From a virus, in the UHGV virus genome UHGV-1356053: a DNA stretch of 14,087 nt. The stretch is one strand, 5' to 3'. Every line of letters starts with the position of its first letter. Position 1 is the stretch's first letter. Below the pieces are notes generated by a model. It was not told the DNA's origin. It did not search any database and saw only the letters and a list, made by a program, of their open reading frames with translations. Positions 5,407 through 12,873 of the stretch are shown one piece after another. A program made the translations under genes and the position numbers.

Positions 5407-5754
5407 GTGGAAGAAGAAATCTTCACTCGTGAAGAAGCTGCGTCGTATCTGAAGGTAGACAAAGGCACTATCACACAGTGGATACGAAGTGGACGACTTC
5501 AGGCCGCAAAGATAAATCCAGATAAACCTAAAAGTCCATATCGCATTTGCAAGTCAGACTGCATTGCGGCGCTTAAGTCTGTGAGACACAATAGCGCGGT
5601 GAATGCGGTTGATGTGCAGGAGGTTAAAGCATGTCAATCAAACTACGCGGTGGCACGTGGCACTGCGATTTCGTCGCGCCAGATGGATCAAGAGTTAGAC
5701 GCTCTCTTGAAACATCGGACAAAAGGCAAGCGCAAGAACTTCACGATCGTCTGA
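5407..5754 (+). CDS. xis: Excisionase (helix-turn-helix Xis family), 115 aa
   Basis: GTG 5407 with GGAGA 6 nt upstream is the best-supported start (the track's ATG 5335 has no RBS); FTREEAASYLKVDKGTITQWIRSGRLQAAKI is an excisionase-type HTH; 3' end overlaps the int start by 124 nt in another frame. Confidence 0.65.
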   Translation: MEEEIFTREEAASYLKVDKGTITQWIRSGRLQAAKINPDKPKSPYRICKSDCIAALKSVRHNSAVNAVDVQEVKACQSNYAVARGTAISSRQMDQELDALLKHRTKGKRKNFTIV

Positions 5755-6791
5755 AAGCAGAAGCGTGGAGAGTAAAAAATCTCGGGGAATCACCGAAAAA
5801 GCTATTCAAGGAAGCCTGCATACGGTGGCTGCGTGAGAAATCGGATAAGAAGTCCATTGATGATGACAAGAGCATTATATCGTTCTGGATGTTGCACTTC
5901 AGAGAAGCCATTCTCTCTGACATAACAACAGAAAAAATAATGGAGGCGGTAGACGGGATGGAAAACCGCCGCCATCGCCTGAACTGGGAGATGAGCCGGG
6001 ACAGGTGTTTGCGACTTGGCAATCCGGTGCCGGAGTATAAACCAAAGCTGGCAAGCAAAGGAACGAAGACGAGGCATCTGGCAATACTTCGCGCCATTCT
6101 CAATATGGCTGTTGAATGGGGATGGCTTGACAGGGCACCCAAAATATCAACACCACGCGTTAAGAATGGACGCATCAGATGGCTTACAGAGGAGGAATCG
6201 AAGCGCCTGTTTGCAGAAATTGCTCCTCACTTCTTCCCTGTGGTCATGTTTGCAATCACGACAGGCCTTCGCCGTTCCAACGTTACAGACCTTGAGTGGT
6301 CACAGGTCGATCTGGATAAGAAAATGGCATGGATGCACCCTGATGAAACAAAAGCTGGCAATGCGATCGGAGTTCCTCTTAACGAAACCGCATGCCAGAT
6401 ATTAAGAAAACAGCAGGGGCTCCATAAGAGATGGGTATTTGTCCACACCAAACCTGCCTACCGAAGCGACGGAACAAAAACAGCAGCGGTAAGGAAGATG
6501 AGAACCGACAGCAACAAGGCATGGAAGGGAGCGTTAAAGCGGGCAGGCATTAGCAACTTCCGCTTCCATGACCTGAGGCATACCTGGGCAAGCTGGCTGG
6601 TTCAGTCCGGTGTCTCTCTTCTTGCACTTAAAGAGATGGGAGGATGGGAAACTCTCGAAATGGTTCAAAGATACGCCCACCTTTCAGCCGGGCATCTCAC
6701 CGAGCACGCGAGCAAAATCGATGCGATTATAAGTCGCAATGGCACAAATACGGCACAAGAGGAGAACGTAGTTTACTTAAATGTGAGGTAA
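5631..6791 (+). CDS. int: Tyrosine integrase, P22 Int type (386 aa)
   Basis: AGGAGG upstream of ATG 5631; resembles P22 Int throughout as recalled (KRQAQELHDRLKAEAWRV, TGLRRSN, FRFHDLRHTWASWLVQ, GGWE..EMVQRYAHL with the catalytic R..HxxR..Y pattern); ends 15 bp from the att core. Confidence 0.97.
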   Translation: MSIKLRGGTWHCDFVAPDGSRVRRSLETSDKRQAQELHDRLKAEAWRVKNLGESPKKLFKEACIRWLREKSDKKSIDDDKSIISFWMLHFREAILSDITTEKIMEAVDGMENRRHRLNWEMSRDRCLRLGNPVPEYKPKLASKGTKTRHLAILRAILNMAVEWGWLDRAPKISTPRVKNGRIRWLTEEESKRLFAEIAPHFFPVVMFAITTGLRRSNVTDLEWSQVDLDKKMAWMHPDETKAGNAIGVPLNETACQILRKQQGLHKRWVFVHTKPAYRSDGTKTAAVRKMRTDSNKAWKGALKRAGISNFRFHDLRHTWASWLVQSGVSLLALKEMGGWETLEMVQRYAHLSAGHLTEHASKIDAIISRNGTNTAQEENVVYLNVR

Positions 6792-7082: not shown

Positions 7083-7382
7083 CTACGATGCAAGAATCCA
7101 TACCAATAAGCATCCGATAATTGGGAAAGAAAAATCCAACAGACTTCCCACATCCCACACGCGTGGATCAAAACCTCCCCACCACGGCATGTTGATGCGT
7201 TTCCCTTTCCCAAACTTTTCTATCCAGCGATATTCTGCCTGGGTGTGTTCACGCGCAATGAAGAACGTACAACCGGCTATCGCACCGTAAGCCCAGTTTC
7301 CGGTAGAAAGGCCAACCAGTACCTGAGCCGCAAAAGCGCAAAGCGAGTGAAGAAATGGAGTGACATCAATGCTCTTAATCAT
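7083..7382 (-). CDS. Hypothetical small membrane protein (99 aa), translationally coupled to the tailspike
   Basis: Its ATG (7382-7380) overlaps the tailspike stop (ATGA); hydrophobic segments [30 protein letters not shown] and [16 protein letters not shown]; occupies the tailspike-to-attP slot where P22 and Sf6 carry gtrABC or oac. Confidence 0.65.
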
Positions 7383-9436
7383 GAAACTTCCCCATTGGTT
7401 GAAAATATGGCTCCTCCAACGCCAAGTGTATTTCGTGTTGCGCTCAACCTCAGAGGGCTGGAGTCAGAATTAGAATATCCTGTAGCAGAAATAAAAGATC
7501 CTCCACTAATAGTCAACTGCGGAACATCGGCTATATCTGAATAAGTTCTGTCAGCAACAGTATTATTTATAGCCACATGTGATCCAAAAAAACTTCTTAT
7601 TGTTTGGTTTTTAACTTTACTTCCTTCAATGGTTATCCTACTACCACAGTCGGCAATAAATCCTGAATCTGCATCCAGCGTTGCATTCATAAAAGAAGCT
7701 TCAGATCTCTCTACATCAATCCATCTAATATCTTTTGTGGGATTTGCACCAAATACATGACAAATATTAGAGTTAAACCTTACTCCATCTTGGAGGTGCA
7801 TTAATTTTTTTATATCTGTACCCCATAGCCTTGGAAAATTAACAGATGCTCCTGCATGGCAATCAAATCCCAGCTCAGCCCCTGAGATATCTACAGCCTT
7901 TCCTGAAATAACAGCGCCAGTGTCTGCATTAACGGCTGTTCCACAATTGCGCATATCATTACCAGCAACATCAACACAACCCGCACCATCAATACGCACA
8001 CCAAGCGCACATCCATAAAAACCTTTTTCAATATTTGGTTCAAGGACTTTACCACTTGTTTCTGCATCACTTTCTTCAACGTCATGTCGTCTTGCATCAA
8101 CATATGCTGTATGAATGCAGGTTAATCCACGATATGAGCAGTGTATAGTTTTATGGTCGCGTATATTAACATTTGAACCATCTCTTACATTCCACCCCAT
8201 ATAACAATAGCTTGCACTTGACCCCTGAAAATCTGCTTTAACATTATAAATACAATTAACTGACGCAACCGTACTCTCTGTGCACCGTTCAAACTTGCTT
8301 ACAGGCATTGATGCCTTGACATTATTTACCAGTTGCAGGGAAGAGTATCTGCTATAAGAAAAATCACATACGTAATACCCTTCTGGCATATATGCAGCAA
8401 CACTTTCCTCATCAGGAGCACATCCGGTATGATATGCACTAATTTTTGCACCAAAGCTACCATGAATTCCAACGTAGAACTTTCGAGCACCTGAATACGG
8501 ATAGAAATTAAGTTCAGCTTTTTGAGTTACAATAAATGCACAAACATCGCTATCATCTCTATTTTCTTCAATCTGAATAGCAAATACAGGACTTTTTGCT
8601 GCATCGCAAATGTAAAATAAATATTTGTATTCGTAATACGTCCTAACAGTTTTAGTAAACAAACTGGTATCAGAGAAAACCACTGAGTCTTCTGATATTA
8701 TTTTAATCCATGATAAGTCACATCCTGCTGAAATTTCTATTTGCTCATTGAGCACAAAACCGGAAAGAATTTTAATTATGCAAAAATCAATGCCATTTTT
8801 CCATAGTGGACGCAGTGCAACAGCTGAGTTTAGAGCATCACTAATAGATTTAAAATTACCATATTCCCCAACTGTTATTGTGAATGCATACCTGGAATTA
8901 AATACTGCGGCACTCTCTCCAGAGTTAATAGCTGCAGATATCATGTCATAATTTGATATAAAATCATTTGGCGTGATTATTTCTGCGTTTTTATTGTGCT
9001 GTGTTCTAAGTTTTGAATTTACATGAACACTTTTAACTGCAATACGGGAGTCGTCAACAAGTATTTCATTACCCTCTGTTGCTAACTCTTGTCTTAACTG
9101 ATCCGGGTCATACTTCAGCACATTCGGAAAATAGAACTGCTGCACACCGTACGCATCATAAACAGCCATAGAATGGCCCTGTACAGTAACGAATTTGGCA
9201 ATCTGTCCGTTATATACAGGGTAACCAGCAGCGTTAATGATGATTGGTTGCGAAACAGGAACGTGAGAACCGTCTTCGTTTTCCACATAAACCTGAATCT
9301 GGTTTTCAGGATTTACCGGGTCAGTGTCAATTTTCCCGATATAAATTTTGCCATTGGCTACGGCTTTAAAAGAACGCGCCATAGTGAAGAGTTGCGAAGG
9401 CATACTCACTACAACATTGGCTGTAATGTCTGTCAT
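7379..9436 (-). CDS. Tailspike protein: P22/Sf6-type N-terminal head-binding domain plus divergent receptor-binding (putative depolymerase) body, 685 aa
   Basis: N-terminal ~115 aa ([46 protein letters not shown]...NVLKYDPDQ) match the podovirus tailspike head-binding domain as recalled; the rest is Gly/Asn/Ser/Val/Cys-rich repetitive sequence compatible with a beta-helix; GGAG 8 nt upstream of the ATG. Confidence 0.95.
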
Positions 9437-9472: not shown

Positions 9473-9519
9473 TGCCACAGTGATGCATTATTAATCAAAC
9501 AAAGAGACCGCTGTGGTCT
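9473..9519. promoter_or_regulatory. Candidate operator elements in the divergent tailspike/mnt control region
   Basis: TGCCACAG (9473-9480) and its inverted near-copy CTGTGGTC (9511-9518; reverse complement GACCACAG); local palindrome AGACC-N5-GGTCT (9505-9519); lies in the 146-bp gap between the tailspike and mnt starts. Confidence 0.35.
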
Positions 9520-9582: not shown

Positions 9583-9834
9583 ATGGGAAGAGATGACCCG
9601 CAATTTAATCTGCGGCTACCTTACGAATTAAAGGAAAAACTAAAACAGCGAGCCAAATCCAATGGCCGCTCTCTTAATTCAGAATTAGTTCAGATAGTGA
9701 CTGATGCTGTATCAAAGCCATCCAAAATTTCAGGCTATCGAGACGATGCGGAACGCATCGCTGATGAGCAGTCAGAGCTTGTTAAGAAGATGGTGTTTGA
9801 TACGCTGAAGGATTTGTACAAAAAACCCACCTGA
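9583..9834 (+). CDS. mnt: Mnt-type ribbon-helix-helix repressor (83 aa)
   Basis: MGRDDPQFNLRLPYELKEKLKQRAKSNGRSLNSELVQIVTDAVSKPSKISGYRDDAERIADEQSELVKKMVFDTLKDLYKKPT matches P22 Mnt along its whole length as recalled, including the C-terminal ADEQSELVKKMVFDTLKDLYKK. Confidence 0.93.
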   Translation: MGRDDPQFNLRLPYELKEKLKQRAKSNGRSLNSELVQIVTDAVSKPSKISGYRDDAERIADEQSELVKKMVFDTLKDLYKKPT

Positions 9835-9850
9835 AGGTGGGTTAATTTTT
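9824..9850 (+). terminator. Rho-independent terminator of mnt
   Basis: AACCCACC (9824-9831), loop TGAA, GGTGGGTT (9836-9843), then AATTTTT; the mnt stop codon lies in the loop. Confidence 0.75.
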
Positions 9851-9868
9851 GCATTTACCTGGGCCATA

Positions 9869-9897
9869 TTGACTACTTATAAAATGAGATCAATATT
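9869..9897 (+). promoter_or_regulatory. Candidate sigma70 promoter for the small downstream gene
   Basis: TTGACT (9869-9874), 16-17 nt spacer, CAATAT/AATATT (9891-9897); about 35 nt upstream of the RBS at 9925. Confidence 0.35.
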
Positions 9898-9933
9898 TAA
9901 TCGCCCAATAACGGGTGTATGTTGAGGTATATC

Positions 9934-10113
9934 ATGGCGAAAAAACCAGGTGAAAACACAGGAAAAAACGGCGGAATATACCAAGAAGTTGGCCCACGCG
10001 GCGGTAAGAAAGACAATTTTGCAACCGTCAAGGACAACGAAAGGCTTCCACCAACAACAAAGCCAGGTCATGGCTGGGTATTGGATAAGCGAACTCCAGA
10101 CAGCAAAAAGTAA
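9934..10113 (+). CDS. Small Gly/Lys-rich hypothetical protein (59 aa), tentatively YjzC-like
   Basis: ATG 9934 with GAGGT 5 nt upstream; MAKKPGENTGKNGGIYQEVGPRGGKKDNFATVKDNERLPPTTKPGHGWVL...; flanked by its own promoter candidate and a terminator. Confidence 0.6.
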   Translation: MAKKPGENTGKNGGIYQEVGPRGGKKDNFATVKDNERLPPTTKPGHGWVLDKRTPDSKK

Positions 10114-10118
10114 TAATC

Positions 10119-10141
10119 AAGCCGGGTCACTCCGGCTTTTT
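10119..10141. terminator. Bidirectional intrinsic terminator between convergent genes
   Basis: AAGCCGG (10119-10125), loop GTCACT, CCGGCTT (10132-10138), then TTTT; the stop codon of the minus-strand HExxH gene (10127-10129) lies within the hairpin. Confidence 0.7.
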
Positions 10142-10492
10142 GATATGTCGCTCGCAGAACTCAACAAGCCTGCTCATTAAGTAGCAGTAAGTCTCGTTGG
10201 CTCTTCCTGGTTCAACATCAACACCTACCCTTGAGCAGATATCGAATGCCATGTGAGCGCACTCATGGGCAATAGTAGATAGTTTGCCATTGAACACGCC
10301 TATCACATGCAAAACACCATTCTCGCTACTCATTGTATGAGACGCTCCGTTGGCGTCCGAGTCATGCACGTCAACGCCAAGTTTTTGATGCAGGCGTTGC
10401 CATTCTGGAAAGTCTCTACAAAACACAATTGTACCGCTCTCAAAGAGCGGAACGAGCATCTTTGGTACGTTTCCAATGTTAACTTTTTTCAT
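10127..10492 (-). CDS. Small soluble HExxH-motif protein (putative minimal Zn-metallopeptidase-like), 121 aa
   Basis: ATG 10492-10490 with AGGA upstream; IAHECAHMAFD (HExxH) followed by Glu residues 16-22 positions downstream (VDVE, NET), a gluzincin-like arrangement; no hydrophobic segments. Confidence 0.7.
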   Translation of the reverse strand: MKKVNIGNVPKMLVPLFESGTIVFCRDFPEWQRLHQKLGVDVHDSDANGASHTMSSENGVLHVIGVFNGKLSTIAHECAHMAFDICSRVGVDVEPGRANETYCYLMSRLVEFCERHIKKPE

Positions 10493-10526
10493 GGTATCCT
10501 GCGCAAAACTAAGGAGAGTTAATTAT

Positions 10527-11012
10527 ATGAAAAAATCACTGTTAATTATCCCGCTTCTGCTGGCTGGGTGCGCAAAAGTAAGCGACTATCAGGCAAGTTG
10601 CGAGCAACGCTATCCAAAGCTTAGCGATATGGCTAATTGCCTTGATGCCAGCTTGAAGAACGACTCTCGCATGGCATCAGCACCAACACCTAAGCTGTAT
10701 GTCCTTGCTGCGAAGATGCTCGGGCAAGGTGTCGATGAAGGCAAGATAAGTGACACACAGGCAAGACTTGAACTTCAGAATCTTTATGTTCAATTACAAA
10801 GCCAAGAACAAGCACAACAAATAGCACAAAGCCAAGCATTCCAGCAGGCTTTATTGAATTATCAGGCTGTAAACACAATGCAAGCGATCGAGCAAAAAGC
10901 GCGCCAGCCTGTTATAACTCAACCTTACCCAACACGCGTTGACACATATACAAACTGCAATTCAGGATTTGGAAACACGGTAACATGCAACAGTAGCAGT
11001 AATATCAGATAG
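10527..11012 (+). CDS. Lipoprotein with Gln-rich coiled-coil region (161 aa)
   Basis: ATG 10527 with AAGGAG 10 nt upstream; signal peptide MKKSLLIIPLLLAGC with lipobox LAG-C, Ala at +2; four further Cys in two pairs; QSQEQAQQIAQSQAFQQALLNYQAV coiled-coil-like. Confidence 0.8.
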   Translation: MKKSLLIIPLLLAGCAKVSDYQASCEQRYPKLSDMANCLDASLKNDSRMASAPTPKLYVLAAKMLGQGVDEGKISDTQARLELQNLYVQLQSQEQAQQIAQSQAFQQALLNYQAVNTMQAIEQKARQPVITQPYPTRVDTYTNCNSGFGNTVTCNSSSNIR

Positions 11013-11025
11013 TTATATCTTATTT

Positions 11026-12873
11026 TTATTGCTGTTCTGCTGTAATTTGGCTTGAAAGTATAGGGCGTATCGCATTTGCAGCATTATTTAGCGCTCTTTC
11101 ATAGGCTGGTGTTCCTGCTTTGGTGTTTGCCAAACGTAAGAGAGCATTCCTTGCTGCTTTTGACTCATACAAGCGCATCATTGCACCGAAACCAGCCTCA
11201 AGCCCCATTGATACGCCAAGAGTCGCAGTTGCGCCAATCGTCCTTATCCTGTTGGCTTGCGATTGCCCCGTCTGAGTTACTACATTTGCGGTGTCTGACC
11301 TTGCTGTTTGCTGTAGAACTTCATGAAGAGAATCAAGCTCTTTCATGTGCTTTCCAGAAAAAATAGTGTTGTAAATTTCACCGCCTGACTGAGATTTCAG
11401 CTTATTAACTTCAGTGATGAACTTGGCTGGAGAGTCACCGGCCTTTTCCGCTATTTTGCTGACATAAGCTGCACGCATAGCATCTTTCCCTTTATTATCC
11501 AATGCGCTCCAGATTCGTTTCACGTCAGATGGTTTTCTGCTTAATACAACGGTATTTATAAGTTCAGGACTGGCTTCACTGCTTGCCTTGTTGAGCTTGT
11601 TAGCAATGTTTTTATTAAGCACCTTATTATAAACGTTTGCATAATCGGAATTTGCTTTAAGGTATTTTGCTGCGTCTGATGCACCGAGGTTTTTTGCAAC
11701 TGCGTTACGAAGATCTTTTGACATTGCATTCTCTACCATATTGGTAGCTGCTTTTGCCTGGTTTGGGAAGACCATAGCATCTCCCTGAACATTAGATCTA
11801 AATGCTGTTCTGTGCTGACGCAAGAGATCAAACGTAACATCCAAATCAGTTGCAGGGTTTGCTAATTCTTCACGTAGGTTACGCAAGGATGTAAGCAGGC
11901 TTTGATTGGCAGACGTCCCAAGCCGTTCCTGTCTTGCGATCGCTGTATTCAGAGCATTCATGGTATTTGTGGTATCAACTGCGGCATTACCCATTTTATT
12001 GGTGACGTCATTGATAACAGCGCCAGCGGCATCCTTCCGCCCCCTTAACGTGGTGGTAAGAGATTTCACCACATCATCAGGGTTGTACTCACCAAAACGG
12101 TCAAAATAATTACTTACCAGCTTACTACGCGTTGCATATTGCTCCGCTCGCTTTGAGCCTGTCCCGAGCAAAGCCCCCTCGGCATCCTGAGTTAGGCCGC
12201 GAGTGAAAGCATTTTTCGGCGGGATAACATCAGATGTCATTGGTGTCACGCCCATCGATTCTGATGTGGCAATTTTCTTCGCCACTTCTGGCGCAATATC
12301 ACCTTTTATAGCCGTTATTCCACGCCCTATTCCCTTTGCTGCTGCGGAAAGAACCCCCTGAGCGGCAAGGTTAACTCCGGCATTTTTAGCTGCATTTTGT
12401 GCGAAATCGCCTTTCTGATTTGCGGCCTCTGCCAGTGATCCAATAGCCATGCTTCCTGCCGTTCCAACTCCTGGAACTAAATACCCGCCAATTGTTTCTC
12501 CAGCTTGCGCATAAGGGTCTGTTGGTCGATCGACTGGACGATAGACATCGTCCAAAACCTTGGGGCCACCAAGCCCCTGGCTGATTGCATTAATCAGACT
12601 TGCGCCGCCCTGCAATACGTCAAATGGTATGTTTACCAGACCACGACCAGCCTGTTCCGCAATTTGCCCTGCACTTTGACCACCAGTGAGCCAATCGCCA
12701 GCTTGTTGCATCAATGATGGTTCTTCCCGTGTTGGTGCATTATTGGCCTGATTAACTGTTTGTTGCTGAACAGCCTGACCAGCAAAATACTCATCAATGG
12801 CGGTGCCAATATCTTCGGTGCTCGTACCATCAGGAAAGGTAAATATCTTACCGTTTGCAGTTACTTTCATCAT
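11026..12873 (-). CDS. Ejection (DNA-transfer) protein, P22 gp16-like by size and position (615 aa)
   Basis: Ala/Gly/Gln-rich soluble protein of the size expected for gp16, immediately upstream (in late-operon direction) of the sieA/immI-position island and tailspike. The second ATG (12870) has the better-spaced GGTGG RBS. Confidence 0.8.

What the first reader, a model, noticed from the sequence alone, without database searches (positions are those of the whole stretch)
9850..11025. Accessory island in the sieA/immI position: lipoprotein, HExxH protein and small Gly/Lys-rich protein
In P22 the interval between gene 16 and gene 9 holds sieA, mnt, arc and ant. Here mnt is kept, arc/ant are absent, and the space between mnt and the gp16-like gene holds three genes in alternating orientation, each with its own expression signals (candidate promoter 9869-9897, terminators 9824-9850 and 10119-10141, strong RBSs). 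This moron-like arrangement at a known superinfection-exclusion locus is the best candidate in the window for an uncharacterised exclusion or defence module. The function is inferred from position only.
Basis: partly seen in the sequence, partly recalled or inferred. Interest (0 to 1): 0.75.

Follow-up and report, generated by a model that had tools for sequence, protein, structure and literature searches.

The report
Lipoprotein replaces sieA in P22-like moron
This is the already described, fast-changing "ant moron" between the DNA-injection gene 16 and the tailspike gene of a P22-like E. coli phage; two of its three small genes are also in P22 itself, and only the third, an uncharacterised lipoprotein sitting exactly where P22 keeps its exclusion gene sieA, is a plausible but untested new exclusion factor.

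Summary
The three genes and their signals are real, at the stated coordinates. They are not one module.

- **orf59a and hkcC.** orf59a (9934-10113, +) and hkcC (10127-10492, -) are the same genes as P22 orf59a and HK620 hkcC, at 98-99% amino-acid identity. They coexist with sieA in P22. Both are listed in the literature as "ant moron" genes of unknown function.
- **ORF59a** is a divergent member of the YjzC family and has its own conserved promoter.
- **HkcC** is a 121-aa zincin-like protein. H76, E77, H80 and E100 are invariant across a family of 514 clusters. It always lies on the late-operon strand.
- **The pair** recurs as a convergent cassette in several phage types, but it is not obligate.
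- **The lipoprotein** (10527-11012, +) is the only gene in the sieA slot. Identity to P22 and HK620 stops at the shared ribosome-binding site. It abuts gene 16 in P22-like prophages of several Enterobacterales genera, usually without orf59a and hkcC. It has no Pfam, PADLOC, PDB-sequence or PDB fold match.

An exclusion role for the lipoprotein is inferred from position only. Verdict: an ordinary mosaic moron with one modestly interesting candidate.

The parts
7379..9436 (-). Tailspike gene (P22 gene 9 homologue); one boundary of the ant moron
   Evidence: 685-aa ORF. Its N-terminal 115 aa are 93-99% identical in the tabulated IMG/VR loci, where the match lies just beyond mnt. The gene is annotated as tailspike in related records.
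9505..9519 (.). Omnt-like near-palindrome AGACCGCTGTGGTCT in the tailspike-mnt intergenic region
   Evidence: It is followed by TATTGAG; the P22 operator AGGTCCACCGTGGACCT is followed by ATTGAG. It is a perfect palindrome in phage Gally. The operator role is inferred by analogy.
9583..9834 (+). mnt (orphan Mnt repressor; no arc or ant)
   Evidence: Pfam Arc 2.8e-22 plus Repressor_Mnt 2.2e-18. Annotated Mnt in related phages.
9824..9843 (.). Bidirectional hairpin terminator after mnt
   Evidence: Scan hit on both strands. Fold -14.6 kcal/mol, z -3.19.
9869..9897 (+). orf59a promoter, TTGACT-17 nt-AATATT
   Evidence: The only scan hit in the region. Both hexamers and the 17-nt spacing are kept in 5 independent contexts while the spacer sequence diverges.
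9934..10113 (+). orf59a (P22 ORF59a / HK620 HkcD): 59-aa divergent YjzC-family protein
   Evidence: 98% identical to P22 ORF59a. PHROG 3202. For the window protein itself, YjzC PF14168 scores 19.4 bits against a cut-off of 25. 16 of 27 homologues match PF14168, best 4e-10.
10119..10138 (.). Bidirectional terminator shared by the convergent orf59a and hkcC (tORF59A of HK620; labelled 'mnt terminator' in P22 record BK000583)
   Evidence: z -3.28 on the + strand and -3.14 on the - strand. The T-run is good on the + strand only.
10127..10492 (-). hkcC: 121-aa zincin-like (HExxH...E) protein on the late-operon strand
   Evidence: 99% identical to HK620 HkcC and to an unannotated P22 ORF. PHROG 1365. 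AlphaFold pLDDT 89. H76, E77, H80 and E100 are invariant in 42 diverse relatives.
10462..10492 (+). Stretch equivalent to the putative PsieA promoter of P22
   Evidence: BK000583 annotates the sieA promoter over the first 31 nt of hkcC, on the opposite strand. The window is identical to P22 here. The promoter is called 'putative' in the literature.
10510..10516 (+). Ribosome-binding site TAAGGAG shared by sieA (P22), hkcB (HK620) and the lipoprotein gene; point where homology to P22 ends
   Evidence: Alignment A2. The same junction is seen in Gally and in locus L062.
10527..11012 (+). Lipoprotein gene occupying the sieA slot (161 aa; lipobox LAGC, Cys15)
   Evidence: PHROG 6067 at 2.9e-109. 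90 homologues, with every named source in Enterobacterales, none with a Pfam domain and all but one short chimeric hit called hypothetical, lipoprotein or (once) GspK. L12, G14, C15, C25, C38 and C154 are invariant. Annotated as 161 aa in RefSeq.
11026..12873 (-). Gene 16 homologue (ejection protein); other boundary of the ant moron
   Evidence: 615-aa ORF. Neighbours of lipoprotein homologues carry Pfam Phage_P22_gp16.

Best explanation
The interval is a reduced version of the known "ant moron" of P22-like phages. It is built from three units that are inherited independently.

1. **orf59a** is a self-contained moron with its own sigma-70 promoter and a bidirectional terminator. It encodes a 59-aa YjzC-family protein and is probably made in the lysogen.
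2. **hkcC** lies on the strand of the late operon (gene 16 to tailspike). It is probably transcribed by late read-through and encodes a minimal zinc-metallopeptidase-like protein (HExxH plus a downstream Glu). Units 1 and 2 are the same genes as in P22 and HK620.
3. **The lipoprotein gene** replaces the sieA open reading frame precisely. The swap runs from the shared ribosome-binding site to 13 bp before the gene 16 stop codon.

The lipoprotein is predicted to be exported and lipidated on Cys15. Because residue +2 is Ala rather than Asp, it is predicted to be sorted to the outer membrane. In the periplasm it would present a small helical head, a roughly 50-residue Gln-rich helix and a C-terminal Cys-Cys hairpin.

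The most likely role is a prophage-expressed envelope protein that acts as a lysogenic-conversion or superinfection-exclusion factor. It would be a functional analogue of SieA, not a homologue.

**Shown:** the gene identities, the cassette junction, the positional conservation and the lack of linkage between the three genes. **Inferred:** expression timing, localisation and any exclusion activity. My confidence is about 0.85 for the architecture and about 0.35 for the exclusion role.
For: **Shared genes and junction**
- P22, HK620 and the window are near-identical from orf59a through hkcC, up to the RBS CTAAGGAG, and then diverge into sieA, hkcB or the lipoprotein gene.
- BK000583 places PsieA inside that shared stretch.
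- In P22, 85 bp upstream of sieA plus the sieA gene were enough for exclusion.

**Lipoprotein position**
- In Providencia, Yersinia ruckeri and Klebsiella aerogenes P22-like prophages the lipoprotein lies convergent to a gp16-family gene.
- It lies within 3-94 bp of a 300-aa-or-longer convergent ORF in 75 of 80 IMG/VR loci. Neighbouring gp16 ranges from under 40% to over 95% identity.
- No P22-type SieA is present in any of those 80 loci.

**Lipoprotein features**
- The lipobox and four further Cys residues are conserved.
- The model gives a helical head (pLDDT 85-91), a long helix and a hairpin.

**Other cargo in the slot**
- Every other slot protein examined has a predicted membrane span, signal peptide or lipobox: SieA (inner membrane protein), HkcB (N-terminal hydrophobic segment), Rap1a-like, and other proteins with predicted signal peptides, lipoboxes or hydrophobic N-terminal segments.

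**orf59a and hkcC**
- The orf59a promoter is conserved across contexts.
- hkcC-family genes are co-oriented with tail, lysis or virion genes in each context examined.
- HExxH...E is invariant.
- BFVD fold matches include SprT-like and metalloprotease-labelled phage proteins.
Against: - There is no functional data for any of the three proteins.
- The lipoprotein matches nothing of known function: no Pfam, NCBIfam or PADLOC hit, no meaningful PDB sequence hit (one at E 1.2) and no PDB fold hit (best E 1.6).
- The C-terminal third of the lipoprotein model has low confidence.
- The slot can also hold a Rap1a-family protein, a type VI amidase immunity family. The slot is therefore not necessarily anti-phage.
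- In loci that lack hkcC, the PsieA stretch is absent upstream of the lipoprotein gene. Expression from PsieA is therefore not general.
Confidence: 0.55

Rival explanations
1. The three genes form one co-functioning exclusion or defence cassette that has replaced sieA, arc and ant.
For: The genes are adjacent, tightly packed and have signals of their own. The full mnt-orf59a-hkcC-lipoprotein block recurs nearly unchanged in 18 complete E. coli genomes. A diverged version (lipoprotein about 60% identical) occurs in Morganella.
Against: - orf59a and hkcC coexist with sieA in P22.
- Only 18 of 80 lipoprotein loci carry the pair.
- In complete E. coli genomes the lipoprotein is in 186, the pair in 132 and the whole block in 18. 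This is no more than independent assortment would give.
- Distant lipoprotein homologues lack the pair.
- The pair occurs without the lipoprotein in other phage types.
- No PADLOC hit.
Confidence: 0.05
2. The lipoprotein is a lysogenic-conversion factor unrelated to phage exclusion. Examples would be serum or complement resistance (as with lambda Bor), immunity to type VI or colicin-type envelope toxins, or a general envelope-fitness function.
For: The same slot holds a Rap1a-family immunity protein in one prophage. Known prophage outer-membrane lipoproteins such as Bor act on the host rather than on phages (my own knowledge). A near-identical lipoprotein sits next to gp16 proteins of very different sequence types, so it is not tuned to one ejection-protein type.
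Against: The slot is that of the best-studied exclusion gene of this phage group. The lipoprotein family was found only in P22-like prophages, always beside gene 16. SieA also works across divergent gp16 types, so lack of co-variation does not argue against exclusion.
Confidence: 0.3
3. orf59a and hkcC are a functional pair. A YjzC-like protein is made from its own promoter in the lysogen, and a late-expressed mini-zincin antagonises or processes it, or its host target. Convergent transcription makes the two states mutually exclusive.
For: - The convergent pair, with a gap of only a few to about 25 bp between the two stop codons, recurs in several settings. These are P22-like phages of E. coli, Salmonella and Morganella, and tail-gene clusters of Klebsiella oxytoca and Rosenbergiella prophages. 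Further cases are two Xenorhabdus loci (one shown to lie in a prophage beside a lysis cassette) and loci in Proteus penneri and a Pasteurellaceae genome. One more is an IMG/VR contig where HkcC is only 44% identical.
- hkcC is on the late strand and orf59a on the opposite strand wherever the neighbouring late, tail or lysis genes could be read.
Against: - 77 of 80 species-level YjzC-like loci have no HkcC neighbour.
- HkcC relatives in phages L, ST64T, epsilon34, mEp021 and phCDa have no orf59a.
- There is no evidence of physical or genetic interaction. Co-transfer of two adjacent small genes could be hitch-hiking.
Confidence: 0.2
4. HkcC is an ImmA/IrrE-type anti-repressor protease that cleaves Mnt/Arc-type repressors of the immI region.
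For: hkcC lies near mnt in P22-like phages. Weak BFVD matches include proteins labelled IrrE (E 0.03-0.05). Arc-domain genes lie about 5 kb away in the K. oxytoca prophage.
Against: There is no Pfam Peptidase_M78/ImmA hit. The pair also occurs where no Arc or Mnt gene was called within the fetched 4-6 kb flanks. HkcC paralogues sit in lysis-proximal late regions.
Confidence: 0.05

Closest known systems
The "ant moron" (sieA/immI region) of P22-like phages (Villafane et al. 2008, PMC2629481)
   Same: Same location between genes 16 and 9. Same mnt, orf59a and hkcC genes. Same pattern of interchangeable cargo.
   Different: arc, ant and sar are missing, and sieA is replaced by a lipoprotein gene. 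I did not find this lipoprotein cargo named in the passages of that paper that I read.
P22 SieA (inner-membrane superinfection exclusion protein, types A, B and C; Leavitt et al. 2024, PMC10883804)
   Same: Same slot, same upstream DNA up to the ribosome-binding site, and the same convergent position next to gene 16. The slot proteins examined all have a predicted membrane span, signal peptide or lipobox.
   Different: SieA is a multi-pass inner-membrane protein with an FxRYPxEAxxFNK motif. The window protein has a cleavable lipoprotein signal and no other hydrophobic segment or such motif. The lipoprotein-family profile does not match P22 SieA.
Phage lipoproteins that exclude superinfecting phages: T5 Llp, phi80/N15 Cor, Streptococcus TP-J34 Ltp
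   Same: A small prophage- or phage-encoded lipoprotein expressed to act at the cell envelope. Ltp is cited as an exclusion lipoprotein that targets the tape measure protein. Llp and Cor are from my own knowledge.
   Different: No sequence or fold similarity was found. The target is unknown and the activity is untested.
Small zincin metallopeptidases (minigluzincins, SprT-like proteins, thermolysin-type gluzincins)
   Same: HkcC has HExxH on one helix and an invariant Glu 24 residues after the first His on the next helix, preceded by Asn. This is the spacing of thermolysin H142/E166 (my own knowledge). Supporting calls: 46, 67. BFVD matches to SprT-like and metalloprotease-labelled phage proteins have E values of 1e-3 to 1e-5.
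YjzC-like protein family (Pfam PF14168)
   Same: ORF59a shares the PG...GxYxExGPRGG...PPT signature. 16 of 27 homologues match PF14168. UniRef names close homologues 'YjzC family protein'.
   Different: The window protein itself scores below Pfam's cut-off (19.4 against 25 bits). The family has no known function: a full-text search returned 14 papers, none with YjzC in the title or abstract.

Membership tests
SieA superinfection exclusion proteins (types A, B, C) | Position between gene 16 and gene 9 homologues of a P22-like prophage | tested here: met
   The lipoprotein gene ends 13 bp before the gene 16 stop codon. The same holds in other genera.
SieA superinfection exclusion proteins (types A, B, C) | Multi-pass inner-membrane protein with the conserved FxRYPxEAxxFNK motif and detectable sequence similarity to SieA | tested here: not met
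   The only hydrophobic segment is the signal peptide, and the motif is absent from the sequence (features). A lipoprotein-family profile search at E up to 10 does not list P22 SieA.
Bacterial lipoproteins (signal peptidase II substrates) | Basic N-terminus, hydrophobic core and lipobox [LVI][ASTVI][GAS]C | tested here: met
   MKKSLLIIPLLLAG-C15. L12, G14 and C15 are invariant in 19 homologues. One RefSeq record names the gene 'lipoprotein'.
Bacterial lipoproteins (signal peptidase II substrates) | Actual lipidation and outer-membrane sorting | not testable with these tools
   Inferred from Ala at position +2 (no Asp retention signal), using the E. coli Lol sorting rule from my own knowledge.
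Zincin / gluzincin metallopeptidases | HExxH motif on a helix plus a third-ligand Glu on the following helix | tested here: met
   H76, E77, H80 and E100 are the only invariant residues besides G49 in 42 relatives of 23-44% identity. Helices 71-88 and 100-116 are modelled at pLDDT about 95.
Zincin / gluzincin metallopeptidases | Fold similarity to solved zincins, or membership of a curated peptidase family | tested here: inconclusive
- BFVD: significant matches to SprT-like and metalloprotease-labelled phage proteins.
- No Pfam family and no significant PDB sequence hit.
Zincin / gluzincin metallopeptidases | Zinc binding and peptidase activity | not testable with these tools
   Requires purified protein.
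YjzC-like proteins (PF14168) | Match to the family profile above Pfam's gathering score | tested here: inconclusive
   The window protein scores 19.4 bits against a cut-off of 25. 16 of 27 aligned homologues match, best E 4.1e-10.
Morons (independently expressed inserts in phage operons) | Own promoter and terminator; present or absent among otherwise syntenic relatives; not needed for the operon's function | tested here: met
   The orf59a promoter is conserved in 5 contexts, with flanking terminators. Gene content between genes 16 and 9 varies. The region is defined as a moron in PMC2629481.
Known anti-phage defence systems (PADLOC-DB 2.0) | Match of any component to a defence-system protein model | tested here: not met
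   No family matches any of the three proteins at E up to 1.
Obligate two-gene systems (for example toxin-antitoxin-like) for orf59a/hkcC | The two families co-occur consistently | tested here: not met
   Only 3 of 80 species-level YjzC-like loci have an HkcC neighbour. HkcC paralogues occur without orf59a. The pairing is recurrent but confined to a phage-borne subset.

The most novel reading that the evidence does not exclude
orf59a and hkcC form a mobile two-state cassette. The cassette has moved between podovirus-type and siphovirus-type prophages. In this reading a highly conserved YjzC-like 59-aa protein is made from its own promoter in the lysogen. A minimal zincin protease is made only with the late genes and neutralises or processes that protein, or its cellular target, when the phage goes lytic. 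This would be an unrecognised kind of prophage switch or self-immunity module. Separately, and less novel, the lipoprotein could be a new outer-membrane or periplasmic exclusion factor that substitutes for SieA.
Probability: 0.15. Interest if true: 0.6.

Novelty: new member of a known kind. Interest (0 to 1): 0.3.

Why it matters
If the lipoprotein excludes P22-like phages, the sieA slot would be a site where unrelated envelope proteins are exchanged for the same task. These include an inner-membrane SieA, membrane-anchored HkcB and an outer-membrane lipoprotein. That would offer a second handle on how the gp7/gp20/gp16 conduit crosses the periplasm, which is still unclear after the SieA work.

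The lipoprotein gene is in about 3% of complete E. coli genomes (186 of 5426), including an ST131 genome. It may therefore affect phage susceptibility of clinical strains.

The HkcC result assigns a likely biochemical class, a minimal zinc peptidase, to a P22 gene that has been "unknown" since the genome was sequenced.

Otherwise the region is an ordinary, already described mosaic moron.

Tried and rejected
**Searches that gave nothing**
- **Lipoprotein:** no Pfam, NCBIfam or PADLOC match. The PDB sequence profile search gave one hit at E 1.2. Foldseek of the model against PDB gave a best E of 1.6.
- **HkcC:** PDB sequence profile searches gave nothing significant, only weak HExxH-centred hits at E 0.25 or worse. 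A Pfam scan of 42 family members gave only one SprT-like hit at E 0.009.
- **ORF59a:** the family profile has no PDB hit. A literature search for YjzC gave nothing on function.
- The afdb50 fold library was not available.

**Attempts to sample distant HkcC contexts in IMG/VR**
- The diverse alignment had no stretch conserved enough to search with.
- Two single distant proteins found nothing.
- A third gave two loci.

**Readings considered and rejected**
- **SieA homologue:** the defining features are not met.
- **Spanin-type lipoprotein:** it is not in the lysis cassette and has no C-terminal membrane segment.
- **One three-gene defence system:** the co-occurrence data contradict it.
- **ORF start at 10476 or 9919:** the starts listed by the ORF finder. 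I rejected them in favour of 10527 and 9934, based on ribosome-binding sites, RefSeq and P22 annotation, and homologue N-termini.

**Weak leads**
- The 5' UTR hairpin of orf59a is not significant on its own (z -0.88).
- A first inverted-repeat search of the mnt-tailspike intergenic region found nothing at seed 6. A looser search found the Omnt-like site.
Full report
**What the window is.** The window is a P22-like (Lederbergvirus-type) E. coli phage in circular order.
- It holds early-left genes: a Rad52-type recombinase, SSB, Abc2 and Ead/Ea22.
- It then holds a 386-aa ORF (5631-6791) at the position of the integrases annotated in related phages, the tailspike (7379-9436, -) and mnt (9583-9834, +). 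The interval in question follows, then a gene 16 homologue (11026-12873, -).
- The interval with mnt is 100% identical to a prophage segment in E. coli IR53017.

**Check of the observation.** The three ORFs are present as described.
- orf59a is at 9934-10113 (+) and encodes 59 aa rich in Gly and Lys.
- The HECAH-containing ORF is at 10127-10492 (-) and encodes 121 aa.
- The lipoprotein ORF is at 10527-11012 (+) and encodes 161 aa starting MKKSLLIIPLLLAGC.
- Each has conserved homologues, so they are genes and not chance ORFs.
- The consensus scan finds a promoter-like site at 9869-9897 and hairpin-plus-T sites at 9824-9843 and 10119-10138. The hairpins fold better than shuffles, with z about -3.2.
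- arc and ant are absent, because mnt starts 146 bp from the tailspike start.
The one exception is that hkcC has no promoter of its own.

**Two of the three genes are P22 and HK620 genes.**
- Window 9736-10520 matches P22 at 97.3% DNA identity.
- The P22 record lists mnt, ORF59a, sieA and 16 in the same order.
- HK620 annotates hkcC, a possible HkcD (which is orf59a), a bidirectional terminator tORF59A and hkcB.
- ORF59a is 98% identical to its P22 and HK620 counterparts, and HkcC is 99% identical.
- Villafane et al. 2008 named this region the "ant moron". They described it as being in rapid flux and listed hkcC and 59a as P22 genes of unknown function.
- Leavitt et al. 2024 showed that sieA alone is necessary and sufficient for SieA exclusion. 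They also showed that SieA is a multi-pass inner-membrane protein of three sequence types.
- orf59a and hkcC therefore do not replace sieA, and they are not needed for that exclusion.

**The lipoprotein is a precise swap for sieA.**
- In an alignment of the window, P22 and HK620, identity runs through hkcC and up to the shared ribosome-binding site CTAAGGAG. The sequences then diverge into the lipoprotein gene, sieA or hkcB.
- P22 record BK000583 places the putative sieA promoter within the shared stretch, over the first 31 nt of hkcC on the other strand. This corresponds to window 10462-10492.
- The lipoprotein gene ends 13 bp before the gene 16 stop codon.

**The lipoprotein family.**
- It has 90 members, and every one that carries an organism name is from Enterobacterales. 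None has a Pfam domain, and none has a functional name apart from one labelled GspK and one short chimeric hit labelled recombinase. It corresponds to PHROG 6067.
- In Providencia, Yersinia ruckeri and Klebsiella aerogenes P22-like prophages it again lies convergent to a gp16-family gene, without orf59a or hkcC.
- In 80 IMG/VR loci with a 97-100% identical copy, 75 have a long convergent ORF ending 3-94 bp away.
- In those loci the neighbouring gp16 ranges from under 40% to over 95% identity, and none has a P22-type SieA.

**The trio is not a unit.**
- Of those 80 loci, 18 carry orf59a plus hkcC and 16 carry a different lipoprotein (Gally gp14) in their place. Most of the rest carry neither; 38 of them show only a tailspike N-terminus, mnt and gp16 beside the lipoprotein gene.
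- Among 5426 complete E. coli genomes, 186 have the lipoprotein gene, 132 have the orf59a/hkcC block and 18 have the whole block.

**Anatomy of the lipoprotein.**
- L12, G14 and C15 of the lipobox are invariant, as are C25, C38 and C154. The C-terminal motif is C-x(9)-C with an invariant Gly.
- The model has a helical head (residues 18-70, pLDDT 85-91), one long helix (76-125, Gln-rich) and a low-confidence C-terminal hairpin.
- Nothing in the PDB resembles it.
- Residue +2 is Ala, which by the E. coli sorting rule suggests the outer membrane. This is an inference.
- A Morganella slot protein shares only the Gln-rich and Cys-hairpin C-terminus, and has a BamE-like N-terminal part. The C-terminal module may therefore be a functional unit.
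- Every other slot protein examined has a predicted membrane span, signal peptide or lipobox. They include SieA, HkcB, a Rap1a-family protein and two signal-peptide proteins.

**HkcC.**
- The model is confident (pLDDT 89, pTM 0.83). It has a small sheet and helix followed by two long helices.
- A profile search of 1.84 billion representatives found 514 clusters, mostly stand-alone proteins of 110-130 aa.
- In 42 diverse members the invariant residues are G49, H76, E77, H80 and E100. This is HExxH plus a Glu 24 residues after the first His, the gluzincin arrangement.
- BFVD gives significant matches to many small phage proteins, some labelled SprT-like or metalloprotease.
- No Pfam family is matched.
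- hkcC-family genes lie on the strand of tail, lysis or virion genes in each context examined. Expression with the late operon is therefore likely. This is an inference.

**ORF59a.**
- It is a divergent YjzC-family protein.
- Relatives of 60-80% identity occur across Proteobacteria and beyond.
- Its TTGACT-17-AATATT promoter is kept in five contexts while the spacer diverges.

**The orf59a/hkcC pair.**
- The convergent pair, with a gap of only a few to about 25 bp, recurs in the following settings:
  - P22-like prophages of Morganella;
  - tail-gene clusters of Klebsiella oxytoca and Rosenbergiella prophages;
  - two Xenorhabdus loci, one of them in a prophage beside a lysis cassette;
  - loci in Proteus penneri and in a Pasteurellaceae genome;
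  - an IMG/VR contig.
- The pairing is not obligate. 77 of 80 species-level YjzC-like loci lack HkcC. HkcC paralogues in L, ST64T, epsilon34, mEp021 and phCDa lack orf59a.

**Verdict.**
- It is the known ant moron with a cargo swap.
- The lipoprotein is a reasonable but untested candidate for an exclusion or other envelope-immunity factor. It is not a SieA family member.
- The recurrent orf59a/hkcC cassette and the zincin signature of HkcC are the most useful new points.
- Interest is modest.

Noticed in passing
window 9505-9519 and 9583-9834: The orphan Mnt differs from P22 Mnt in the N-terminal DNA-reading strand (RDDPQFNLR against RDDPHFNFR). The intergenic region carries a matching altered near-palindrome, AGACCGCTGTGGTCT, where P22 has AGGTCCACCGTGGACCT. 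With arc and ant gone, whatever this operator controls would face the tailspike gene.
   Followed up: partly
window 9898-9915, with L008, L010, L011 and L101: Just after the orf59a -10 hexamer there is a short hairpin. Its stem changes in a compensatory way between contexts: GCCC/GGGT, GCTCA/TGAGC, GCTC/GAGC and GCC/GGC. It could be a 5' mRNA stabiliser or an operator. It is not significant on its own in the window.
   Followed up: partly
window 7083-7382 (-): A 99-aa ORF with several hydrophobic stretches lies downstream of the tailspike, near the integrase and attachment region. It has no Pfam match and is also present in the IR53017 prophage. It may be a lysogenic-conversion gene.
   Followed up: no
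L103 4271-4735 (Morganella prophage): A 154-aa lipoprotein in the sieA slot shares only the Gln-rich stretch and the C-terminal TTNCxxxGxxVxCNxY hairpin with the window lipoprotein. Its N-terminal part is weakly BamE-like. This suggests a reusable C-terminal module.
   Followed up: partly
L011 209-562: In a P22-like contig from a sequencing-run assembly, the sieA slot holds a Rap1a-family protein (type VI amidase immunity family, E 4.9e-15), next to hkcC and orf59a.
   Followed up: no
L007 6480-9200 (Klebsiella aerogenes prophage): The gp16 homologue next to the lipoprotein is 906 aa and carries an SLT lytic transglycosylase domain.
   Followed up: no
L002 3452-3871 (phage Gally gp14) and 16 IMG/VR loci: A different 139-aa lipoprotein (signal sequence ...LLSGC, weak PEGA-domain hit) replaces orf59a and hkcC, on the late strand beside the window-type lipoprotein.
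   Followed up: no
L108-L187 (genome contigs): ORF59a-like YjzC proteins keep 60-80% identity to the phage protein across Alpha-, Beta- and Gammaproteobacteria and some other phyla. This is unusually strong conservation for a 59-aa protein of unknown function.
   Followed up: partly
L019 2501-2890 (epsilon34 gene 70); phages L, ST64T, ST104: A second HkcC paralogue (Orf129 type, 38-40% identical) sits downstream of the lysis genes in the late operon. In epsilon34 and the L/ST64T-type phages it has no orf59a partner. Some phages (ST160, SE1) carry both paralogues.
   Followed up: partly
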